Source: Escherichia coli (GTDB taxonomy: Bacteria; Pseudomonadota; Gammaproteobacteria; Enterobacterales; Enterobacteriaceae). Taken from it: 64,000 bases of DNA. Made by a program: the position numbers and the translations under genes. The stretch's first letter is position 1. Each line of letters starts with the position of its first letter. Of the stretch, positions 16,837 through 27,437 are shown in pieces. The notes beneath the pieces were generated by a model. The model was not told the origin of the DNA and did no database searches. It saw only the letters and a list, made by a program, of their open reading frames with translations. The DNA lies in assembly GCF_030013205.1 (NCBI RefSeq), contig NZ_CP122648.1. One strand, written 5' to 3'.

Positions 16837-17658
16837 ATGGCTAAAGCAAACTCTTCATTTTCTGAAGTGCAAATTGCCCGTCGTATTAAAGAGGGGCGTG
16901 GCCAAGGGCATGGTAAAGACTATATTCCATGGCTAACAGTACAAGAAGTTCCTTCTTCAGGTCGTTCCCACCGTATTTATTCTCATAAGACGGGACGAGT
17001 CCATCATTTGCTATCTGACTTAGAGCTTGCTGTTTTTCTCAGTCTTGAGTGGGAGAGCAGCGTGCTAGATATACGCGAGCAGTTCCCCTTATTACCTAGT
17101 GATACCAGGCAGATTGCAATAGATAGTGGTATTAAGCATCCTGTTATTCGTGGTGTAGATCAGGTTATGTCTACTGATTTTTTAGTGGACTGCAAAGATG
17201 GTCCTTTTGAGCAGTTTGCTATTCAAGTCAAACCTGCAGCAGCCTTACAAGACGAGCGTACCTTAGAAAAACTAGAACTAGAGCGTCGCTATTGGCAGCA
17301 AAAGCAAATTCCTTGGTTCATTTTTACTGATAAAGAAATAAATCCCGTAGTAAAAGAAAATATTGAATGGCTTTATTCAGTGAAAACAGAAGAAGTTTCT
17401 GCGGAGCTTTTAGCACAACTATCCCCATTGGCCCATATCCTGCAAGAAAAAGGAGATGAAAACATTATCAATGTCTGTAAGCAGGTTGATATTGCTTATG
17501 ATTTGGAGTTAGGCAAAACATTGAGTGAGATACGAGCCTTAACCGCAAATGGTTTTATTAAGTTCAATATTTATAAGTCTTTCAGGGCAAATAAGTGTGC
17601 AGATCTCTGTATTAGCCAAGTAGTGAATATGGAGGAGTTGCGCTATGTGGCAAATTAA
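16837..17658 (+). CDS. tnsA: Tn7 transposase subunit TnsA (endonuclease-like)
   Basis: 273-aa ORF (MAKANSSFSEVQIARRIKEGRGQGHGKDYIPWLTVQEV...) recognised as TnsA. Confidence 0.96.
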   Translation: MAKANSSFSEVQIARRIKEGRGQGHGKDYIPWLTVQEVPSSGRSHRIYSHKTGRVHHLLSDLELAVFLSLEWESSVLDIREQFPLLPSDTRQIAIDSGIKHPVIRGVDQVMSTDFLVDCKDGPFEQFAIQVKPAAALQDERTLEKLELERRYWQQKQIPWFIFTDKEINPVVKENIEWLYSVKTEEVSAELLAQLSPLAHILQEKGDENIINVCKQVDIAYDLELGKTLSEIRALTANGFIKFNIYKSFRANKCADLCISQVVNMEELRYVAN

Positions 17659-19753
17659 TGAGGTTGTGCTATTTGATAATGATCCGTATCGCATTTTGGC
17701 TATAGAGGATGGCCAAGTTGTCTGGATGCAAATAAGCGCTGATAAAGGAGTTCCACAAGCTAGGGCTGAGTTGTTGCTAATGCAGTATTTAGATGAAGGC
17801 CGCTTAGTTAGAACTGATGACCCTTATGTACATCTTGATTTAGAAGAGCCGTCTGTAGATTCTGTCAGCTTCCAGAAGCGCGAGGAGGATTATCGAAAAA
17901 TTCTTCCTATTATTAATAGTAAGGATCGTTTCGACCCTAAAGTCAGAAGCGAACTCGTTGAGCATGTGGTCCAAGAACATAAGGTTACTAAGGCTACAGT
18001 TTATAAGTTGTTACGCCGTTACTGGCAGCGTGGTCAAACGCCTAATGCATTAATTCCTGACTACAAAAACAGCGGTGCACCAGGGGAAAGACGTTCAGCG
18101 ACAGGAACAGCAAAGATTGGCCGAGCCAGAGAATATGGTAAGGGTGAAGGAACCAAGGTAACGCCCGAGATTGAACGCCTTTTTAGGTTGACCATAGAAA
18201 AGCACCTGTTAAATCAAAAAGGTACAAAGACCACCGTTGCCTATAGACGATTTGTGGACTTGTTTGCTCAGTATTTTCCTCGCATTCCCCAAGAGGATTA
18301 CCCAACACTACGTCAGTTTCGTTATTTTTATGATCGAGAATACCCTAAAGCTCAGCGCTTAAAGTCTAGAGTTAAAGCAGGGGTATATAAAAAAGACGTA
18401 CGACCCTTAAGTAGTACAGCCACTTCTCAGGCGTTAGGCCCTGGGAGTCGTTATGAGATTGATGCCACGATTGCTGATATTTATTTAGTGGATCATCATG
18501 ATCGCCAAAAAATCATAGGAAGACCAACGCTTTACATTGTGATTGATGTGTTTAGTCGGATGATCACGGGCTTTTATATCGGCTTTGAAAATCCGTCTTA
18601 TGTGGTGGCGATGCAGGCTTTTGTAAATGCTTGCTCTGACAAAACGGCCATTTGTGCCCAGCATGATATTGAGATTAGTAGCTCAGACTGGCCGTGTGTA
18701 GGTTTGCCAGATGTGTTGCTAGCGGACCGTGGCGAATTAATGAGTCATCAGGTCGAAGCCTTAGTTTCTAGTTTTAATGTGCGAGTGGAAAGTGCTCCAC
18801 CTAGACGTGGCGATGCTAAAGGCATAGTGGAAAGCACTTTTAGAACACTACAAGCCGAGTTTAAGTCCTTTGCACCTGGCATTGTAGAGGGCAGTCGGAT
18901 CAAAAGCCATGGTGAAACAGACTATAGGTTAGATGCATCTCTGTCGGTATTTGAGTTCACACAAATTATTTTGCGTACGATCTTATTCAGAAATAACCAT
19001 CTGGTGATGGATAAATACGATCGAGATGCTGATTTTCCTACAGATTTACCGTCTATTCCTGTCCAGCTATGGCAATGGGGTATGCAGCATCGTACAGGTA
19101 GTTTAAGGGCTGTGGAGCAAGAGCAGTTGCGAGTAGCGTTACTGCCTCGCCGAAAGGTCTCTATTTCTTCATTTGGCGTTAATTTGTGGGGTTTGTATTA
19201 CTCGGGGTCAGAGATTCTGCGTGAGGGTTGGTTGCAGCGGAGCACTGATATAGCTAGACCTCAACATTTAGAAGCGGCTTATGACCCAGTGCTGGTTGAT
19301 ACGATTTATTTGTTTCCGCAAGTTGGCAGCCGTGTATTTTGGCGCTGTAATCTGACGGAACGTAGTCGGCAGTTTAAAGGTCTCTCATTTTGGGAGGTTT
19401 GGGATATACAAGCACAAGAAAAACACAATAAAGCCAATGCGAAGCAGGATGAGTTAACTAAACGCAGGGAGCTTGAGGCGTTTATTCAGCAAACCATTCA
19501 GAAAGCGAATAAGTTAACGCCCAGTACTACTGAGCCCAAATCAACACGCATTAAGCAGATTAAAACTAATAAAAAAGAAGCCGTGACCTCGGAGCGTAAA
19601 AAACGTGCGGAGCATTTGAAGCCAAGCTCTTCAGGTGATGAGGCTAAAGTTATTCCTTTCAACGCAGTGGAAGCGGATGATCAAGAAGATTACAGCCTAC
19701 CCACATACGTGCCTGAATTATTTCAGGATCCACCAGAAAAGGATGAGTCATGA
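17645..19753 (+). CDS. tnsB: Tn7 transposase subunit TnsB (DDE recombinase)
   Basis: 702-aa ORF overlapping the tnsA 3' end. Confidence 0.96.
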
Positions 19754-21417
19754 GTGCTACCCGGATTCAAGCAGTTTATCGTGATACGGGGGTAGAGGCT
19801 TATCGTGATAATCCTTTTATCGAGGCCTTACCACCATTACAAGAGTCAGTGAATAGTGCTGCATCACTGAAATCCTCTTTACAGCTTACTTCCTCTGACT
19901 TGCAAAAGTCCCGTGTTATCAGAGCTCATACCATTTGTCGTATTCCAGATGACTATTTTCAGCCATTAGGTACGCATTTGCTACTAAGTGAGCGTATTTC
20001 GGTCATGATTCGAGGTGGCTACGTAGGCAGAAATCCTAAAACAGGAGATTTACAAAAGCATTTACAAAATGGTTATGAGCGTGTTCAAACGGGAGAGTTG
20101 GAGACATTTCGCTTTGAGGAGGCACGATCTACGGCACAAAGCTTATTGTTAATTGGTTGTTCTGGTAGTGGGAAGACGACCTCTCTTCATCGTATTCTAG
20201 CCACGTATCCTCAGGTGATTTACCATCGTGAACTCAATGTAGAGCAGGTGGTGTATTTGAAAATAGACTGCTCGCATAATGGTTCGCTAAAAGAAATCTG
20301 CTTGAATTTTTTCAGAGCGTTGGATCGAGCCTTGGGCTCGAACTATGAGCGTCGTTATGGCTTAAAACGTCATGGTATAGAAACCATGTTGGCTTTGATG
20401 TCGCAAATAGCCAATGCACATGCTTTAGGGTTGTTGGTTATTGATGAAATTCAGCATTTAAGCCGCTCTCGTTCGGGTGGATCTCAAGAGATGCTGAACT
20501 TTTTTGTGACGATGGTGAATATTATTGGCGTACCAGTGATGTTGATTGGTACCCCTAAAGCACGAGAGATTTTTGAGGCTGATTTGCGGTCTGCACGTAG
20601 AGGGGCAGGGTTTGGAGCTATATTCTGGGATCCTATACAACAAACGCAACGTGGAAAGCCCAATCAAGAGTGGATCGCTTTTACGGATAATCTTTGGCAA
20701 TTACAGCTTTTACAACGCAAAGATGCGCTGTTATCGGATGAGGTCCGTGATGTGTGGTATGAGCTAAGCCAAGGAGTGATGGACATTGTAGTAAAACTTT
20801 TTGTACTCGCTCAGCTCCGTGCGCTAGCTTTAGGCAATGAGCGTATTACCGCTGGTTTATTGCGGCAAGTGTATCAAGATGAGTTAAAGCCTGTGCACCC
20901 CATGCTAGAGGCATTACGCTCGGGTATCCCAGAACGCATTGCTCGTTATTCTGATCTAGTCGTTCCCGAGATTGATAAACGGTTAATCCAACTTCAGCTA
21001 GATATCGCAGCGATACAAGAACAAACACCAGAAGAAAAAGCCCTTCAAGAGTTAGATACCGAAGATCAGCGTCATTTATATCTGATGCTGAAAGAGGATT
21101 ACGATTCAAGCCTGTTAATTCCCACTATTAAAAAAGCGTTTAGCCAGAATCCAACGATGACAAGACAAAAGTTACTGCCTCTTGTTTTGCAGTGGTTGAT
21201 GGAAGGCGAAACGGTAGTGTCAGAACTAGAAAAGCCCTCCAAGAGTAAAAAGGTTTCGGCTATAAAGGTAGTCAAGCCCAGCGACTGGGATAGCTTGCCT
21301 GATACGGATTTACGTTATATCTATTCACAACGCCAACCTGAAAAAACCATGCATGAACGGTTAAAAGGGAAAGGGGTAATAGTGGATATGGCGAGCTTAT
21401 TTAAACAAGCAGGTTAG
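19750..21417 (+). CDS. tnsC: Tn7 ATP-dependent regulator TnsC
   Basis: 555-aa ORF with Walker A motif GCSGSGKT. Confidence 0.96.
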
Positions 21418-21419
21418 CC

Positions 21420-22946
21420 ATGAGAAACTTTCCTGTTCCGTACTCGAATGAGCTGATTTATAGCACTATTGCACGGGCAGGCGTTTATCAAGGGATTGTT
21501 AGTCCTAAGCAGCTGTTGGATGAGGTGTATGGCAACCGCAAGGTGGTCGCTACCTTAGGTCTGCCCTCGCATTTAGGTGTGATAGCAAGACATCTACATC
21601 AAACAGGACGTTACGCTGTTCAGCAGCTTATTTATGAGCATACCTTATTCCCTTTATATGCTCCGTTTGTAGGCAAGGAGCGCCGAGACGAAGCTATTCG
21701 GTTAATGGAGTACCAAGCGCAAGGTGCGGTGCATTTAATGCTAGGAGTCGCTGCTTCTAGAGTTAAGAGCGATAACCGCTTTAGATACTGCCCTGATTGC
21801 GTTGCTCTTCAGCTAAATAGGTATGGGGAAGCCTTTTGGCAACGAGATTGGTATTTGCCCGCTTTGCCATATTGTCCAAAACACGGTGCTTTAGTCTTCT
21901 TTGATAGAGCTGTAGATGATCACCGACATCAATTTTGGGCTTTGGGTCATACTGAGCTGCTTTCAGACTACCCCAAAGACTCCCTATCTCAATTAACAGC
22001 ACTAGCTGCTTATATAGCCCCTCTGTTAGATGCTCCACGAGCGCAAGAGCTTTCCCCAAGCCTTGAGCAGTGGACGCTGTTTTATCAGCGCTTAGCGCAG
22101 GATCTAGGGCTAACCAAAAGCAAGCACATTCGTCATGACTTGGTGGCGGAGAGAGTGAGGCAGACTTTTAGTGATGAGGCACTAGAGAAACTGGATTTAA
22201 AGTTGGCAGAGAACAAGGACACGTGTTGGCTGAAAAGTATATTCCGTAAGCATAGAAAAGCCTTTAGTTATTTACAGCATAGTATTGTGTGGCAAGCCTT
22301 ATTGCCAAAACTAACGGTTATAGAAGCGCTACAGCAGGCAAGTGCTCTTACTGAGCACTCTATAACGACAAGACCTGTTAGCCAGTCTGTGCAACCTAAC
22401 TCTGAAGATTTATCTGTTAAGCATAAAGACTGGCAGCAACTAGTGCATAAATACCAAGGAATTAAGGCGGCAAGACAGTCTTTAGAGGGTGGGGTGCTAT
22501 ACGCTTGGCTTTACCGACATGACAGGGATTGGCTAGTTCACTGGAATCAACAGCATCAACAAGAGCGTCTGGCACCCGCCCCTAGAGTTGATTGGAACCA
22601 AAGAGATCGAATTGCTGTACGACAACTATTAAGAATCATAAAGCGTCTAGATAGTAGCCTTGATCACCCAAGAGCGACATCGAGCTGGCTGTTAAAGCAA
22701 ACTCCTAACGGAACCTCTCTTGCAAAAAATCTACAGAAACTGCCTTTGGTAGCGCTTTGCTTAAAGCGTTACTCAGAGAGTGTGGAAGATTATCAAATTA
22801 GACGGATTAGCCAAGCTTTTATTAAGCTTAAACAGGAAGATGTTGAGCTTAGGCGCTGGCGATTATTAAGAAGTGCAACGTTATCTAAAGAGCGGATAAC
22901 TGAGGAAGCACAAAGATTCTTGGAAATGGTTTATGGGGAAGAGTGA
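21420..22946 (+). CDS. tnsD: Tn7 target selector TnsD (attTn7/glmS binding)
   Basis: 508-aa ORF with N-terminal CCHC-type zinc-finger residues; operon position. Confidence 0.95.
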   Translation: MRNFPVPYSNELIYSTIARAGVYQGIVSPKQLLDEVYGNRKVVATLGLPSHLGVIARHLHQTGRYAVQQLIYEHTLFPLYAPFVGKERRDEAIRLMEYQAQGAVHLMLGVAASRVKSDNRFRYCPDCVALQLNRYGEAFWQRDWYLPALPYCPKHGALVFFDRAVDDHRHQFWALGHTELLSDYPKDSLSQLTALAAYIAPLLDAPRAQELSPSLEQWTLFYQRLAQDLGLTKSKHIRHDLVAERVRQTFSDEALEKLDLKLAENKDTCWLKSIFRKHRKAFSYLQHSIVWQALLPKLTVIEALQQASALTEHSITTRPVSQSVQPNSEDLSVKHKDWQQLVHKYQGIKAARQSLEGGVLYAWLYRHDRDWLVHWNQQHQQERLAPAPRVDWNQRDRIAVRQLLRIIKRLDSSLDHPRATSSWLLKQTPNGTSLAKNLQKLPLVALCLKRYSESVEDYQIRRISQAFIKLKQEDVELRRWRLLRSATLSKERITEEAQRFLEMVYGEE

Positions 22947-24563
22947 GTGGTTAGGCTAGCTACATTTAATGACAATGTGCAGGTTGTACATATTGGTCAT
23001 TTATTCCGTAACTCGGGTCATAAGGAGTGGCGTATTTTTGTTTGGTTTAATCCAATGCAAGAACGGAAATGGACTCGATTTACTCATTTGCCTTTATTAA
23101 GTCGAGCTAAGGTGGTTAACAGTACAACAAAGCAAATAAATAAGGCGGATCGTGTGATTGAGTTTGAAGCATCGGATCTTCAACGAGCCAAAATAATCGA
23201 TTTTCCTAATCTCTCGTCCTTTGCTTCCGTACGCAACAAGGATGGAGCGCAGAGTTCATTTATTTACGAAGCTGAAACACCATATAGCAAGACTCGTTAT
23301 CACATCCCACAGTTAGAGCTAGCTCGGTCATTATTTTTAATTAACTCCTATTTCTGTCGAAGCTGTTTGAGCAGTACCGCTTTACAGCAAGAGTTCGACG
23401 TTCAGTATGAGGTTGAGCGAGATCATTTAGAGATAAGGATCTTACCCAGTTCATCGTTTCCTAAAGGGGCGTTAGAGCAGTCGGCCGTAGTGCAGCTTTT
23501 GGTTTGGTTGTTTTCGGATCAAGATGTTATGGATTCGTATGAAAGTATTTTTAGGCACTATCAACAAAATAGAGAAATTAAGAACGGCGTTGAAAGCTGG
23601 TGCTTTAGCTTTGACCCTCCGCCCATGCAGGGTTGGAAATTACATGTAAAAGGACGTTCTTCTAACGAGGATAAGGATTATTTAGTTGAGGAAATAGTAG
23701 GTTTAGAAATCAACGCTATGCTTCCTAGCACAACAGCTATTAGCCATGCCTCTTTTCAGGAAAAGGAGGCAGGTGATGGTAGTACGCAGCACATAGCGGT
23801 TTCAACAGAGTCAGTTGTTGATGATGAGCATCTACAGTTGGACGATGAGGAAACAGCCAATATAGACACAGACACACGAGTCATAGAGGCTGAGCCGACA
23901 TGGATAAGTTTTAGTAGACCTAGTCGAATTGAAAAATCTCGCAGGGCAAGAAAAAGTAGCCAAACTATTTTAGAAAAAGAAGAAGCAACAACAAGTGAAA
24001 ATAGTAATTTGGTTAGTACTGATGAGCCACACTTAGGTGGTGTCCTAGCAGCGGCAGATGTGGGTGGGAAGCAGGATGCAACCAATTACAACTCTATTTT
24101 TGCTAATCGATTTGCTGCTTTTGATGAGCTACTTTCAATTCTAAAAACTAAATTTGCATGTCGGGTGCTTTTTGAAGAAACCTTGGTTTTGCCAAAAGTT
24201 GGGCGTAGCCGATTACATCTGTGTAAAGATGGCTCACCAAGAGTGATTAAAGCCGTTGGGGTGCAACGTAATGGCAGTGAATTTGTATTGCTAGAGGTGG
24301 ATGCATCGGATGGGGTGAAAATGCTTTCTACCAAAGTGTTGAGTGGCGTTGATAGCGAAACATGGCGGAATGATTTTGAAAAGATACGGCGTGGAGTGGT
24401 GAAGAGCTCATTGAATTGGCCAAATAGTTTGTTTGATCAATTATATGGACAAGACGGGCATAGAGGGGTGAATCATCCAAAGGGGTTGGGGGAGCTGCAA
24501 GTATCGAGAGAGGATATGGAAGGGTGGGCTGAGAGAGTGGTTAGAGAGCAATTTACGCATTAA
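22947..24563 (+). CDS. tnsE: Tn7 target selector TnsE
   Basis: 538-aa ORF with GTG start directly after the tnsD stop. Confidence 0.94.
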   Translation: MVRLATFNDNVQVVHIGHLFRNSGHKEWRIFVWFNPMQERKWTRFTHLPLLSRAKVVNSTTKQINKADRVIEFEASDLQRAKIIDFPNLSSFASVRNKDGAQSSFIYEAETPYSKTRYHIPQLELARSLFLINSYFCRSCLSSTALQQEFDVQYEVERDHLEIRILPSSSFPKGALEQSAVVQLLVWLFSDQDVMDSYESIFRHYQQNREIKNGVESWCFSFDPPPMQGWKLHVKGRSSNEDKDYLVEEIVGLEINAMLPSTTAISHASFQEKEAGDGSTQHIAVSTESVVDDEHLQLDDEETANIDTDTRVIEAEPTWISFSRPSRIEKSRRARKSSQTILEKEEATTSENSNLVSTDEPHLGGVLAAADVGGKQDATNYNSIFANRFAAFDELLSILKTKFACRVLFEETLVLPKVGRSRLHLCKDGSPRVIKAVGVQRNGSEFVLLEVDASDGVKMLSTKVLSGVDSETWRNDFEKIRRGVVKSSLNWPNSLFDQLYGQDGHRGVNHPKGLGELQVSREDMEGWAERVVREQFTH

Positions 24564-24618
24564 AGGAATGACTGAAAGAGCCTGTAAACCCTTTTGTGTA
24601 AGTGCTTTTGCCGGTCAG

Positions 24619-24777
24619 TTAAAGGTGGCCATTTAAACGGTCACCAAATTCGATCATAAAACGGTTCATGGCCGGCTTCCAGTTGCGGATCGGCATCGTC
24701 CATTTCTTGGTCGCCGCCTGGATAGCCAGGTACACCACCTTCATCGCTGATTCGTCCGTAGGGAACACCTTGAGTTC
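24619..24777 (-). pseudogene. 3' remnant of an IS256/Mutator-family transposase gene
   Basis: Minus-strand frame reads ...LKVFPTDESAMKVVYLAIQAATKKWTMPIRNWKPAMNRFMIEFGDRL..., which resembles the conserved C-terminal region of IS256-family transposases; there is no N-terminal part or start codon. Confidence 0.55.
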
Positions 24778-24793
24778 ATATTAATGGAATTTT

Positions 24794-25171
24794 CTACAAA
24801 TAGCCTCCGTGGTTTTGAGGGGGGATTACAGACGATCCATAGTAGTAATCCAATGAGTTCTTGAGCGCGGCGACATGTTTGGACGCCTTGGCAAAAATTA
24901 GAGCCTGCTTGAAGTGCAGGCGAGCACGTGCTTGGACGATTGATCCATTCGCGGTCAAAAACTCAATCTTGGATGACAGCGTGTCAGGAAATCCAATATC
25001 GAAGTCCCGCCCCGTGTCAAAGTAGGGCATTTCATGATCAAAGGACGAAGCTTCCCAGGCCACTTCCCTAATATTCCAGCCGCTAGAAACAAGATTTCGT
25101 ACGACTTCATCAACTTTTTTGCTTTCCAACTTGTCACAAAGTGCATAGGCAAGAGCTTTGGCGGCAGACAC
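24794..25171 (-). CDS. hypothetical protein in the Tn7 variable region
   Basis: 125-aa ORF co-oriented with the cassette array; no recognisable motif. Confidence 0.45.
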   Translation of the reverse strand: MSAAKALAYALCDKLESKKVDEVVRNLVSSGWNIREVAWEASSFDHEMPYFDTGRDFDIGFPDTLSSKIEFLTANGSIVQARARLHFKQALIFAKASKHVAALKNSLDYYYGSSVIPPQNHGGYL

Positions 25172-25224
25172 GTGCGTTTCCTCTTAAACATAGGTCGAAC
25201 GGATACCCGAGGCAAAGCGGAGCA

Positions 25225-25548
25225 TTAGTCCCAAAGCATCTCCGGTAGATCCGGAGGCTCCATACTGAAGGCATGGCATCTTGGGCATTGATATTTGAAA
25301 CTTCTCTCTAGATAGCAGGGATTTCTTGGCCTTGCCTCATGCTGATAGCTTGTAAATATCACACGATCCTTAGCCCCACAAAGTGAGCATACTCCGTAGC
25401 TTTCATTTATAGAAATCGTCGTTAGATTGTCGCAGCATGTGCACGTTCCGACTATTTGCTCAGGAAGCATCGCCATACCTTGGCCTAGGTAAAGAAGATC
25501 AGACTCGTAGCCACATCGGTGGCAACTGAGCTTGTACGCAATGCCCAT
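25225..25548 (-). CDS. hypothetical Cys-rich (zinc-ribbon-like) protein in the Tn7 variable region
   Basis: 107-aa ORF with paired CxxC-type motifs (CHRCG..., CTCCD, CSLCG, CPRCH). Confidence 0.45.
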   Translation of the reverse strand: MGIAYKLSCHRCGYESDLLYLGQGMAMLPEQIVGTCTCCDNLTTISINESYGVCSLCGAKDRVIFTSYQHEARPRNPCYLERSFKYQCPRCHAFSMEPPDLPEMLWD

Positions 25549-25580
25549 CTGGTTGTCTCACCTGAATCGTAACGTCAGAG

Positions 25581-25952
25581 CTATTCATCCATCCATTCGG
25601 CATCAATGTATGCCACTAAGCCGACCAGCTGACCGTTTGGACTGAAGTATGTTGCCTGCACCCCACTTGACATCTCATCAATACCACCGCACTGCGCTAG
25701 GCGCCGGTCCCACTTGCCCACAGAAGCGTCAGGATCGGCTGAGTTCCCCAAGACCCTTGTGAGCCATGCCTCCTTTAACTCAACCTCTCGAATGATTGCG
25801 TCGGCCAGCTCCTCCGCGTTATCTAGTTCGACATAGTCTGGAATTCGGACGTACGTTCTGAACACAGCTGGATACTTACTTGGGCGATTGTCATACATGA
25901 CATCAACAATGTACCCGTTTGTGTAACCGTCTCTTGGAGGTTCGTATGACAC
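25581..25952 (-). CDS. hypothetical protein in the Tn7 variable region
   Basis: 123-aa ORF with GTG start, preceded by a GTTAGGC core-site-like sequence. Confidence 0.45.
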   Translation of the reverse strand: MSYEPPRDGYTNGYIVDVMYDNRPSKYPAVFRTYVRIPDYVELDNAEELADAIIREVELKEAWLTRVLGNSADPDASVGKWDRRLAQCGGIDEMSSGVQATYFSPNGQLVGLVAYIDAEWMDE

Positions 25953-26012
25953 TAGTGGTTCCCCTCAGCTTGCGACTAGATGTTGAGGCCTAACATTTTA
26001 TTAGAGAGCAGG

Positions 26013-26510
26013 CTAGTTGCTTAGATACATGATCTTCAGGCCGTTATCTGTCAGGGCAAGCGAAAATTGGCCATTTATGACGACCAATGCCCCGCAGAAG
26101 CTCCCATCTTTGCCGCCATAGACGCCGCGCCCCCCTTTTGGGGTGTAGAACATCCTTTTGCCAGATGTGGAAAAGAAGTTCGTTGTCCCATTGTTGGCAA
26201 TGACGTAGTAGCCGGCGAAAGTGCGAGACCCATTTGCGCTATATATAAGCCTACGATTTCCGTTGCGACTATTGTCGTAATTGGATGAACTATTATCGTA
26301 GTTGCTCTCAGAGTTGTCGTAATTTGATGGACTATTGTCGTAATTGCTTATGGAGTTGTCGTAGTTGCTTGGAGAAATGTCGTAGTTGGATGGGGAGTAG
26401 TCATAGGGAAGACGAGCTTCATCCACTAAAACAATTGGCAGGTCAGCAAGTGCCTGCCCCGATGCCATCGCAAGTACGAGGCTTAGAACCACCTTCAACA
26501 GATCGCGCAT
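26013..26510 (-). CDS. hypothetical secreted protein with tandem heptad repeats (S-x-S-N-Y-D-N)
   Basis: 165-aa ORF with an N-terminal signal-peptide-like segment (MRDLLKVVLSLVLAMASGQALA) and about seven SPSNYDN-type repeats, encoded by 21-bp tandem DNA repeats near 26280-26410. Confidence 0.55.
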   Translation of the reverse strand: MRDLLKVVLSLVLAMASGQALADLPIVLVDEARLPYDYSPSNYDISPSNYDNSISNYDNSPSNYDNSESNYDNSSSNYDNSRNGNRRLIYSANGSRTFAGYYVIANNGTTNFFSTSGKRMFYTPKGGRGVYGGKDGSFCGALVVINGQFSLALTDNGLKIMYLSN

Positions 26511-26523
26511 AGTCTTCCCCAGC

Positions 26524-26585
26524 TCTCTAACGCTTGAGTTAAGCCGCGCCGCGAAGCGGCGTCGGCTTGAACGAATTGTTAGACA
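26524..26585 (-). other. attC (59-be) recombination site of the aadA1 cassette
   Basis: Imperfect palindrome ttaagccgcgccgcgaagcggcgtcggcttgaacgaattgttagac directly after the aadA1 stop, typical of the aadA1 attC. Confidence 0.8.
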
Positions 26586-27374
26586 TTATTTGCCGACTAC
26601 CTTGGTGATCTCGCCTTTCACGTAGTGAACAAATTCTTCCAACTGATCTGCGCGCGAGGCCAAGCGATCTTCTTGTCCAAGATAAGCCTGCCTAGCTTCA
26701 AGTATGACGGGCTGATACTGGGCCGGCAGGCGCTCCATTGCCCAGTCGGCAGCGACATCCTTCGGCGCGATTTTGCCGGTTACTGCGCTGTACCAAATGC
26801 GGGACAACGTAAGCACTACATTTCGCTCATCGCCAGCCCAGTCGGGCGGCGAGTTCCATAGCGTTAAGGTTTCATTTAGCGCCTCAAATAGATCCTGTTC
26901 AGGAACCGGATCAAAGAGTTCCTCCGCCGCTGGACCTACCAAGGCAACGCTATGTTCTCTTGCTTTTGTCAGCAAGATAGCCAGATCAATGTCGATCGTG
27001 GCTGGCTCGAAGATACCTGCAAGAATGTCATTGCGCTGCCATTCTCCAAATTGCAGTTCGCGCTTAGCTGGATAACGCCACGGAATGATGTCGTCGTGCA
27101 CAACAATGGTGACTTCTACAGCGCGGAGAATCTCGCTCTCTCCAGGGGAAGCCGAAGTTTCCAAAAGGTCGTTGATCAAAGCTCGCCGCGTTGTTTCATC
27201 AAGCCTTACGGTCACCGTAACCAGCAAATCAATATCACTGTGTGGCTTCAGGCCGCCATCCACTGCGGAGCCGTACAAATGTACGGCCAGCAACGTCGGT
27301 TCGAGATGGCGCTCGATGACGCCAACTACCTCTGATAGTTGAGTCGATACTTCGGCGATCACCGCTTCCCTCAT
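26586..27374 (-). CDS. aadA1: aminoglycoside (3'')(9) adenylyltransferase (streptomycin/spectinomycin resistance)
   Basis: 262-aa ORF (MREAVIAEVSTQLSEVVGVIERHLEPTLLAVHLYGSAVDGGLKPHSDIDLLVTV...) recognised as AadA1. Confidence 0.96.
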   Translation of the reverse strand: MREAVIAEVSTQLSEVVGVIERHLEPTLLAVHLYGSAVDGGLKPHSDIDLLVTVTVRLDETTRRALINDLLETSASPGESEILRAVEVTIVVHDDIIPWRYPAKRELQFGEWQRNDILAGIFEPATIDIDLAILLTKAREHSVALVGPAAEELFDPVPEQDLFEALNETLTLWNSPPDWAGDERNVVLTLSRIWYSAVTGKIAPKDVAADWAMERLPAQYQPVILEARQAYLGQEDRLASRADQLEEFVHYVKGEITKVVGK

Positions 27375-27377
27375 GAT

Positions 27378-27437
27378 GTTTAACGCCTGAATTAAGCCGC
27401 GCCGCGAAGCGGTGTCGGCTTGAATGAATTGTTAGGC
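27378..27437 (-). other. attC recombination site of the sat2 cassette
   Basis: About 60-bp imperfect palindrome bounded by GCCTAAC (inverse core, overlapping the sat2 stop) and GTTAAAC (core) on the coding strand. Confidence 0.75.

What the first reader, a model, noticed from the sequence alone, without database searches (positions are those of the whole stretch)
24619..25952. Tn7 variable-region module: three small unknown ORFs and an IS256-family transposase remnant next to tnsE
Between tnsE and the repeat protein lie three co-oriented minus-strand ORFs of 123, 107 and 125 aa. The 107-aa one has four CxxC-like pairs, suggesting a zinc ribbon. Below them is a frame resembling the C-terminus of IS256/Mutator-family transposases with no start codon. 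Such small cargo ORFs beside an IS scar could be unannotated accessory functions.
Basis: partly seen in the sequence, partly recalled or inferred. Interest (0 to 1): 0.4.

Follow-up and report, generated by a model that had tools for sequence, protein, structure and literature searches.

The report
Tn7's known leftover genes ybfA-ybfB-ybgA
This stretch is the well-known, invariant "tail" of the resistance transposon Tn7: three small genes of unknown function (ybfA, ybfB and a truncated ybgA), at least two of them with integron-cassette relatives, plus a dead fragment of an IS256-type insertion sequence. It is real but ordinary.

Summary
The window carries canonical Tn7 at glmS, and 24400-26600 is 100% identical to Tn7 of plasmid R721. 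The three minus-strand ORFs are the ORFs named ybfA (123 aa), ybfB (107 aa) and ybgA (125 aa) in the literature, with function unknown. The frame below them is the last 51 codons plus the terminal inverted repeat of an IS256-family element (24578-24772). RefSeq already annotates it as an incomplete IS256 transposase.

New here:
- All three ORFs belong to real but very rare protein families. ybfA has dN/dS of 0.06-0.13. ybfB has eight invariant cysteines (four CxxC).
- ybfA and ybfB relatives sit as single gene cassettes between attC sites in environmental integron arrays.
- Tn7's ybgA lacks about 35-45 C-terminal residues that its two relatives keep, so it is probably dead.
- In no other sequence examined are any two of the three families adjacent, so they are not a conserved module.
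- No family, defence-system, phage or fold library gives a function.

Best reading: these are old integron cassettes that lost their attC sites and were clipped by a deletion next to an IS, and Tn7 now carries them passively. Already known; low interest.

The parts
24578..24772 (-). Right-end remnant of an IS256-family insertion sequence: the last 51 codons of the transposase (stop at 24619-24621) plus about 41 bp up to and including the terminal inverted repeat (+ strand GAGCCTGTAAACC... starting at 24578). It lies 14 bp from the tnsE stop codon (24561-24563).
   Evidence: The DNA aligns at 74% identity over 195 bp with the 3' end of an intact IS256-family element in L015, as far as ...TACAGGCTC. 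Full-length 71-74% matches to annotated IS256-family ISs, some of them labelled IS1414- or ISAs3-type, occur on plasmids. tblastn gives 74% identity. RefSeq labels it 'IS256 family transposase, incomplete, missing N-terminus', a pseudogene.
24773..24815 (-). Junction interval that holds the deletion breakpoint between the ybgA remnant and the IS remnant. It contains the last, non-homologous codons of ybgA, its stop codon (24794-24796) and about 21 bp of unassigned sequence.
   Evidence: Similarity to the ybgA family ends between 24815 and about 24800. IS homology starts at 24772.
24794..25171 (-). ybgA (125 aa), a 3'-truncated copy of a gene whose two known full-length relatives are 159 and 172 aa.
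   Evidence: 100% identical to WP_001271300.1 in R721. The alignment with P0040 and P0042 (57-59% identity) shows Tn7 lacks the conserved C-terminal block W..PS.H..Y.N..T.AY.TRTIS.G.D..VYCVGN...WR. That block is absent from every frame of the window.
25225..25548 (-). ybfB (107 aa), an intact double zinc-ribbon type protein with four CxxC pairs, an invariant N-terminal MG and a nearly invariant C-terminal WD.
   Evidence: A full HMMER scan of 1.84 billion representatives found about 10 full-length homologues at 30-50% identity. Eight Cys are invariant. The AF2 model is all-beta, pLDDT 89. Homologue P0064 is a single-gene cassette flanked by attC-type repeats in L020.
25567..25582 (-). Possible relic of the 3' (R') half of an attC site at the ybfA/ybfB junction: AGCTCTGACGTTACGA against the consensus AACTCAGGCGTTAGGC (11 of 16 matches). 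Weak, post hoc.
   Evidence: My own estimate of the chance probability is about 0.005 for the 32-nt spacer. A comparable truncated attC half is seen at a fused cassette junction in L007, 1142-1167.
25581..25952 (-). ybfA (123 aa, GTG start, GAGGGG ribosome-binding site), an intact member of a small family of integron-cassette proteins.
   Evidence: Homologues at 56-75% identity. They are cassettes bounded by attC in L028 and start right after an attC in L007 and L025/L026. dN/dS is 0.06-0.13. The AF2 model has pLDDT 82.
25987..26004 (-). Boundary between the ybeA pseudo-cassette and the ybfA unit. A piece of attI2 (CTAATAAAATG|TT) is followed by the core site (G)TTAGGCC, 38 nt upstream of the ybfA start.
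   Evidence: A 13-bp exact repeat of the attI2 end occurs at 28096-28108. PMC12901181 describes the ybeA-delta-attI2(-11) cassette of Tn7.

Best explanation
What it is (shown): the region is the fixed distal tail of the class 2 integron carried by canonical Tn7.

How it arose (inferred):
1. ybfA, ybfB and probably ybgA entered as ordinary integron gene cassettes from environmental bacteria. The ybfA unit still starts at a G|TTAGGC core site directly after a piece of attI2, as a first cassette would.
2. Their attC recombination sites were then lost, which fused the three genes into one immobile block with 32- and 53-nt spacers.
3. An IS256-family element inserted near tnsE. A later deletion removed most of that IS and the 3' end of ybgA with whatever lay between. 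What remains is one IS end with 51 transposase codons, and a ybgA lacking about 35-45 C-terminal residues.

What it does now:
- The IS fragment cannot transpose (inferred: one end only, no catalytic domain).
- ybgA is most likely non-functional (inferred from the truncation).
- ybfA and ybfB are intact. No sigma-70-like promoter was found on their strand between ybeA and tnsE (shown). Any transcription is therefore most likely read-through from the cassette promoter Pc near attI2, about 2.2-3 kb upstream (inferred).
- The block plays no part in transposition, which needs only tnsABCDE and the Tn7 ends (established knowledge of Tn7).
- It is most likely carried passively, because Tn7 spread recently as a near-clonal unit.
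For: - Identity with Tn7 of R721 and many other copies.
- The literature names these ORFs and states that their function is unknown.
- ybeA ends in a piece of attI2, followed by GTTAGGC and then ybfA.
- ybfA relatives are cassettes between attC sites in L007, L025/L026 and L028, and a ybfB relative is one in L020.
- The Tn7 spacers of 32 and 53 nt are too short for an attC, and a crude attC scan of 24401-28400 picked up only the aadA1 site.
- No two of the three families are adjacent in any other locus examined: roughly ten distinct loci among L003-L011, L014 and L019-L028.
- ybgA is truncated.
- The IS remnant has one terminal repeat, and RefSeq calls it a pseudogene.
- No sigma-70-like promoter was found on the minus strand between ybeA and tnsE.
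- Natural Tn7 derivatives lack or disrupt these ORFs: IS1R deletion in pECTm80; an 87-bp inverted copy disrupting ybfA on two Acinetobacter plasmids.
Against: - ybfA and ybfB are intact, have good ribosome-binding sites and keep every invariant residue of their families. Present function is therefore not excluded.
- Tn7 copies are too uniform to show either decay or selection.
- Cassette origin is shown for relatives of ybfA and ybfB only. The two ybgA relatives are not flanked by attC sites.
- The order of the IS insertion and deletion events is inferred, not observed.
- The attC relic at the ybfA/ybfB junction is weak.
Confidence: 0.75

Rival explanations
1. ybfA and/or ybfB are working accessory genes of Tn7. 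They would be single-protein functions of the kind now found among integron cassettes of unknown function, for example small phage-defence, anti-defence or stress proteins. They would be expressed by read-through from Pc and give carriers a benefit.
For: - Both families are under purifying selection or strict motif conservation.
- Both occur as stand-alone cassettes, so each should act alone.
- One ybfA relative lies just downstream of a partial ORF with an SMC/DndD-like Walker B motif (my reading of the sequence; not confirmed by Pfam) and upstream of an 817-aa HTH protein in soil contigs.
- Both confident AF2 models lack any PDB analogue.
Against: - No hit in PADLOC, PHROGs, Pfam or NCBIfam above the cut-offs.
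- No viral structural match.
- The genes sit at the far end of the array with no promoter of their own.
- Natural Tn7 derivatives lacking or disrupting them exist.
- ybfA and ybgA relatives were found in none of 100,044 species genomes, so these families are not widespread adaptive genes. ybfB could not be scanned there.
Confidence: 0.18
2. The three ORFs form one co-functional operon, for example a toxin-antitoxin or three-component system that belongs to Tn7.
For: They are co-oriented and tightly spaced (32 and 53 nt), each has its own ribosome-binding site, and the block is invariant in all Tn7 copies.
Against: - Outside Tn7 the families never co-occur; the neighbours are unrelated in every locus examined.
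- ybgA is truncated.
- There is no match to TA or defence models.
Confidence: 0.04
3. The ORFs are chance open frames in non-coding filler DNA.
For: RefSeq annotation is inconsistent. ybfB is missing from every annotation table seen, and ybfA from some.
Against: All three have full-length homologues at 30-75% identity in unrelated contexts. ybfA has dN/dS around 0.1, and ybfB has eight invariant Cys.
Confidence: 0.02

Closest known systems
ybfA, ybfB and ybgA of Tn7 / class 2 integron In2-7 (e.g. plasmid R721, NC_002525)
   Same: Identical sequence, order and position between ybeA/orfX and tnsE. The same names are used in PMC3332091 and PMC8858760.
   Different: None for this stretch. The window's Tn7 differs only upstream, where a 5' piece of estX replaces the dfrA1 cassette.
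[quoted passage not shown]
   Same: These are small single ORFs. Relatives of ybfA and ybfB are bounded by attC sites in cassette arrays. The ybfA unit in Tn7 begins at a GTTAGGC core site.
   Different: The Tn7 copies have no attC of their own, so they are not mobile cassettes. No defence phenotype or defence-model match is known.
ybeA/orfX pseudo-cassette ending in delta-attI2(-11)
   Same: It is the immediately adjacent unit of the same array, and it is another non-canonical cassette of unknown function.
   Different: ybeA can still be excised by IntI1 through its attI2 piece (PMC12901181). The ybfA-ybgA block has no downstream site to recombine with.
IS256-family insertion sequences (relatives annotated as IS1414-, ISAs3- and ISXax1-type)
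   Same: The C-terminal transposase motif (K)VFPTDES...KKWTMPIRNW...FGDRL and the terminal inverted repeat are present; 71-76% DNA identity to these relatives, 74% to the closest unnamed IS256-family elements.
   Different: Only 195 bp of about 1.3 kb remain. There is no DDE domain and no second end. No parent element above 90% identity exists in the plasmid collection.

Membership tests
Canonical Tn7 tail ORFs (ybfA/ybfB/ybgA) | Sequence identity and position between ybeA/orfX and tnsE of Tn7 | tested here: met
   100% identity over 2201 bp to R721 and many other Tn7 copies, with the same gene order.
IS256-family insertion sequence | Full-length Mutator-type DDE transposase of about 400 aa | tested here: not met
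   Only the last 51 codons are present. Pfam Transposase_mut was not detected on the fragment.
IS256-family insertion sequence | C-terminal transposase sequence and terminal inverted repeat homologous to family members | tested here: met
   74% DNA identity over 195 bp to the end of the IR of an intact element. Protein identity is 60-74% to annotated IS256 transposases.
IS256-family insertion sequence | Two inverted repeats flanked by a target-site duplication | tested here: not met
   Homology stops at 24772 inside the transposase gene, and no second end was found. It is a remnant, not an element.
Integron gene cassette | 5' boundary at a G|TTRRRY core site after the preceding recombination site | tested here: met
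   For ybfA: CTAATAAAATG|TTAGGCC lies 38 nt upstream of its start (PMC12901181). Not seen for ybfB or ybgA.
Integron gene cassette | Own attC site (R''-L''...L'-R' imperfect palindrome) downstream of the ORF | tested here: not met
   The spacers are 32 and 53 nt. A crude scan of 24401-28400 picked up only the aadA1 attC. At most a 16-nt R'-like relic remains.
Integron gene cassette | Relatives found as cassettes in arrays of attC repeats | tested here: met
   ybfA: L007, L025/L026 and L028. ybfB: L020. ybgA: not found in arrays.
Zinc-ribbon proteins (ybfB) | Paired CxxC knuckles conserved across the family | tested here: met
   Four CxxC pairs are invariant in 11 sequences. The all-beta AF2 model has pLDDT 89.
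Zinc-ribbon proteins (ybfB) | Membership of a curated Pfam zinc-ribbon family (score above the gathering cut-off) | tested here: not met
   The best hit is Zn_ribbon_LapB at 21.6 bits against a cut-off of 25.7. Other members hit assorted zinc-ribbon models weakly. Metal binding itself cannot be tested with these tools.
Known anti-phage defence systems / toxin-antitoxin | Match to a PADLOC, Pfam or NCBIfam model of a defence or TA component | tested here: not met
   Nothing at E <= 0.01 for any of the three ORFs or their neighbours in related loci.

The most novel reading that the evidence does not exclude
ybfA and ybfB are functional single-protein cassettes. YbfB would define a new double zinc-ribbon family, and YbfA a new alpha/beta fold, with no solved structural relative. 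Either could have an undiscovered activity such as phage defence, anti-defence or nucleic-acid binding, and every Tn7 would deliver it to its host along with the resistance genes.
Probability: 0.12. Interest if true: 0.45.

Novelty: already known. Interest (0 to 1): 0.15.

Why it matters
Tn7 is one of the most studied transposons and is widespread in clinical Enterobacteriaceae and Acinetobacter, so any hidden function in it would be carried very widely. This analysis mainly closes the question for annotation purposes:

- The stretch is a known, invariant part of Tn7.
- One of the three ORFs (ybgA) is a truncated relic.
- The IS fragment is dead.
- The other two ORFs are rare cassette-type genes with no recognisable function.

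The modest additions are the cassette relatives, the ybgA truncation and the exact IS end. They support the view that the tail of the class 2 integron is a fossil of its earliest cassettes.

Tried and rejected
- Family libraries: Pfam, NCBIfam, PADLOC and PHROGs scans of the three ORFs, ybeA and neighbours in related loci gave nothing above the cut-offs.
- PDB by sequence profile: nothing for ybgA or ybfB. For ybfA there were weak summed hits to WD40 repeat proteins, caused by one FSPNGQ-like strand motif with no single stretch significant. I rejected these as homology.
- Collection scans: IMG/VR for ybfA and ybgA relatives gave none. The 100,044 species genomes gave none for ybfA or ybgA. The ybfB alignment was too divergent for that tool.
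- Apparent distant homologues rejected: P0048 and P0061 (loci L012, L013) turned out to be error-ridden assemblies of Tn7 itself.
- Apparent divergent Tn7 copies: the two Acinetobacter plasmid copies at 96-97% carry an 87-bp inverted copy inside ybfA, not natural divergence.
- Idea of an ancestral [~175-aa]-ybfA-ybfB module: a related 173/176-aa ORF precedes the ybfA relative in L007 and the ybfB relative in L019. It is absent from the other loci, so I did not adopt it.
- Not run: the costly metagenome-wide locus scan. The contexts already collected answered the co-occurrence question.

Full report
**Context.** The window is an Escherichia-type chromosome segment. It runs mnmG, the atp operon, glmU and glmS (14848-16677), then Tn7, then a fimbrial operon and pstSCAB; these gene names are my reading of ORF sizes and order, not tested. 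Tn7 is inserted at its classical site downstream of glmS: tnsA-E on the + strand (16837-24563), and the class 2 integron on the other strand. Window 20400-27983 and 28096-30153 match Tn7 of plasmid R721 at 99.9-100%. The query 24400-26600 is 100% identical to R721 and to many other plasmids and E. coli chromosomes.

**Observation check.**
- The ORFs are 25581-25952 (123 aa), 25225-25548 (107 aa) and 24794-25171 (125 aa), all on the minus strand.
- They are separated by 32 and 53 nt, and each is preceded by a purine-rich ribosome-binding site.
- The 107-aa product has four CxxC pairs.
- The frame at 24619-24772 reads (K)VFPTDESAMKVVYLAIQAATKKWTMPIRNWKPAMNRFMIEFGDRLNGHL*, the signature C-terminus of IS256/Mutator-type transposases.

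**What is already known.** The ORFs are ybfA, ybfB and ybgA, which follow ybeA (orfX) 'at the 3' end of class 2 integrons'.
- Their function is stated to be unknown (PMC3332091; PMC8858760).
- ybeA is a pseudo-cassette whose attC is replaced by a short piece of attI2 (PMC5559693; PMC12901181).
- RefSeq annotates the IS piece as 'IS256 family transposase, incomplete, missing N-terminus'. An older plasmid record calls it 'transposase'.
- ybgA is annotated as a hypothetical protein in the RefSeq-derived tables seen, and ybfA in some. ybfB is in none of the tables seen, although NCBI-sourced copies of the protein exist.

**The IS remnant.**
- tblastn of the fragment finds more than 3000 plasmid records, with 60-74% identity to annotated IS256-family transposases.
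- Against an intact relative (403-aa transposase, L015), DNA homology at 74% runs from window 24772 through the stop codon (24619-24621) to 24578. There both sequences end in ...TACAGGCTC, the terminal inverted repeat.
- Full-length 71-74% matches occur to IS256-family elements of Klebsiella, Marinobacter, Aeromonas and Escherichia, some labelled IS1414- or ISAs3-type. None exceeds 90% apart from Tn7 itself.
- So 195 bp survive: one end and 51 codons, lying 14 bp from the tnsE stop.

**ybfA.** A word-indexed search of 5.8 billion proteins found, beyond Tn7 copies, about ten full-length relatives at 56-75% identity, all from metagenomes.
- They share 37 invariant positions, including a GGIDEMS.GVQA block.
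- Pairwise dN/dS is 0.06-0.13 with saturated dS, so this is a real protein.
- Context is decisive for origin. In L028 the relative is a single gene between two attC sites. In L025/L026 and L007 it starts just after an attC or a truncated attC within arrays of repeats of the type GCCTAACAATTCGTTCAAGCCG...CGGCTTAACTCAGGCGTTAGGC, which closely resemble the aadA1 attC of Tn7 itself. These arrays also hold ParDE and Phd/ParE cassettes.
- In four soil contigs (L003-L006) a 58% relative is not in an array. It lies after a partial ATPase ORF and a 125-aa gene and before an 817-aa HTH protein.
- In Tn7 the ybfA unit begins at (G)TTAGGCC immediately after the attI2 piece CTAATAAAATG|TT that ends ybeA, 38 nt before the GTG start. 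That is the geometry of a first cassette next to attI2.

**ybfB.** The indexed search found only Tn7 copies. Two apparent relatives were noisy assemblies of Tn7.
- The full HMMER scan of 1.84 billion representatives found about ten genuine relatives of 93-129 aa at 30-50% identity.
- All eight cysteines, the N-terminal MG and (nearly always) the C-terminal WD are conserved.
- One relative (L020) is a single-gene cassette between attC-type repeats.
- The others follow unrelated genes: a 176-aa ORF, a 1036-aa sacsin-like protein, and a 240-aa ORF.

**ybgA.** Only two true relatives exist, P0040 (172 aa) and P0042 (159 aa), at 57-59% identity.
- Both continue past the Tn7 protein's ...SLDYYYGSS with a shared block of about 40 residues.
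- That block is absent from every frame of the window.
- The Tn7 gene is therefore truncated, with the breakpoint between about 24815 and 24773, immediately next to the internal breakpoint of the IS remnant at 24772.
- Neither relative is in a cassette array. One sits next to what looks like a phage-type nuclease gene (my reading of the sequence, not tested).

**Not a module.** Across the loci examined (L003-L011, L014 and L019-L028; roughly ten distinct places), no two of the three families are neighbours. tblastn with all Tn7 proteins finds only the one expected family per locus. In the plasmid collection the block occurs only as Tn7, at 96% identity or more. ybfA and ybgA relatives were found in none of 100,044 species-representative genomes, nor in IMG/VR.

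**Function.** Nothing informative was found.
- There are no Pfam, NCBIfam, PADLOC or PHROGs matches above the cut-offs. ybfB gives only sub-threshold zinc-ribbon hits.
- AF2 models are confident: ybfA pLDDT 82, a beta2-alpha2-beta3 arrangement; ybfB pLDDT 89, all-beta.
- No promoter-like site lies on the minus strand between ybeA and tnsE. Expression would therefore have to come from Pc.

**Interpretation.** The simplest account has four steps.
1. These are early cassettes of the class 2 integron that lost their attC sites. A weak 11/16 match to an attC R' half remains at the ybfA/ybfB junction.
2. An IS256-family element then landed beside tnsE.
3. One deletion then removed most of that IS and the end of ybgA.
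4. The younger cassettes (ybeA, aadA1, sat2, dfrA1 or estX) lie between attI2 and this block; the order in which they arrived is inferred from their position.

Identity, truncation, the IS end and the cassette relatives are shown. The order of events and the lack of present function are inferred. A present function for the intact ybfA and ybfB cannot be excluded, and it is the only route to novelty. By analogy with the phage-resistance cassettes found among integron genes of unknown function, I give it about 0.1-0.2.

**Verdict.** The feature is already known and ordinary. Interest is low.

Noticed in passing
window 27966-28096: The first cassette position of this Tn7 does not hold dfrA1. About 112-131 bp matching the 5' end of estX (putative esterase cassette) abut the sat2 cassette, giving a 227-aa ORF (27432-28115) that extends sat2 upstream in frame. 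The exact arrangement was found in only one complete E. coli genome (ETEC4079, NZ_CP122643.1).
   Followed up: partly
window 29574-29813 (-): A 79-aa ORF inside Tn7, between intI2 and the transposon end, matches only the first 72 of 184 positions of Pfam BrxA (E 2.5e-16). RefSeq calls it 'BrxA family protein'. It looks like a fragment of a BREX defence gene, and so another scar in Tn7.
   Followed up: partly
L007 620-1141 and L019 2993-3523: A 173/176-aa protein family (24% identity, E 7e-15 in a small database; shared ...DL(I/V)PFR.P... and ...K(K/R).WW motifs) lies immediately upstream of the ybfA relative in one metagenome contig and of the closest ybfB relative in another. It has no Pfam, PADLOC or PHROGs match. 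The link could be coincidence within shared cassette pools.
   Followed up: partly
L003-L006 (e.g. L003 270-4770): In soil contigs the ybfA relative lies after a partial ORF ending ...VMDTPFGRLD... (an SMC/DndD-like Walker B, by my reading; not confirmed by Pfam) and a 125-aa gene. It lies before an 817-aa protein with RNA-polymerase alpha-CTD, sigma-70 region 4 and HARE-HTH-like domains. This may be a defence-island setting.
   Followed up: no
L017 and L018 (Acinetobacter plasmids NZ_CP084298.1, CP094838.1), equivalent to window 25771-25825: In these Tn7 copies an inverted copy of an 87-bp segment from the ybfB/ybgA junction (window 25191-25277) sits inside ybfA (locus 3989-4075 in L017), where the alignment to the window is scrambled, so ybfA is disrupted. 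It is either a real rearrangement or a shared assembly artefact.
   Followed up: partly
window 26013-26510 (-): ybeA/orfX encodes a signal-peptide protein with seven or eight tandem S(P/x)SNYDN repeats and a C-terminal beta-rich domain. It has no match in Pfam, NCBIfam, PADLOC or PHROGs.
   Followed up: no
window 25581-25952, residues 74-110 of YbfA: A profile of the ybfA family gives summed E-values of about 1e-5 against WD40 repeat proteins in the PDB, because of a single blade-like motif (VQATYFSPNGQLV). No individual stretch is significant, so it is probably convergence of a beta-hairpin motif.
   Followed up: partly
window 28388-29386 (+): intI2 is split by the usual internal stop codon (ORFs 28388-28945 and 29060-29386), as in most class 2 integrons.
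   Followed up: no
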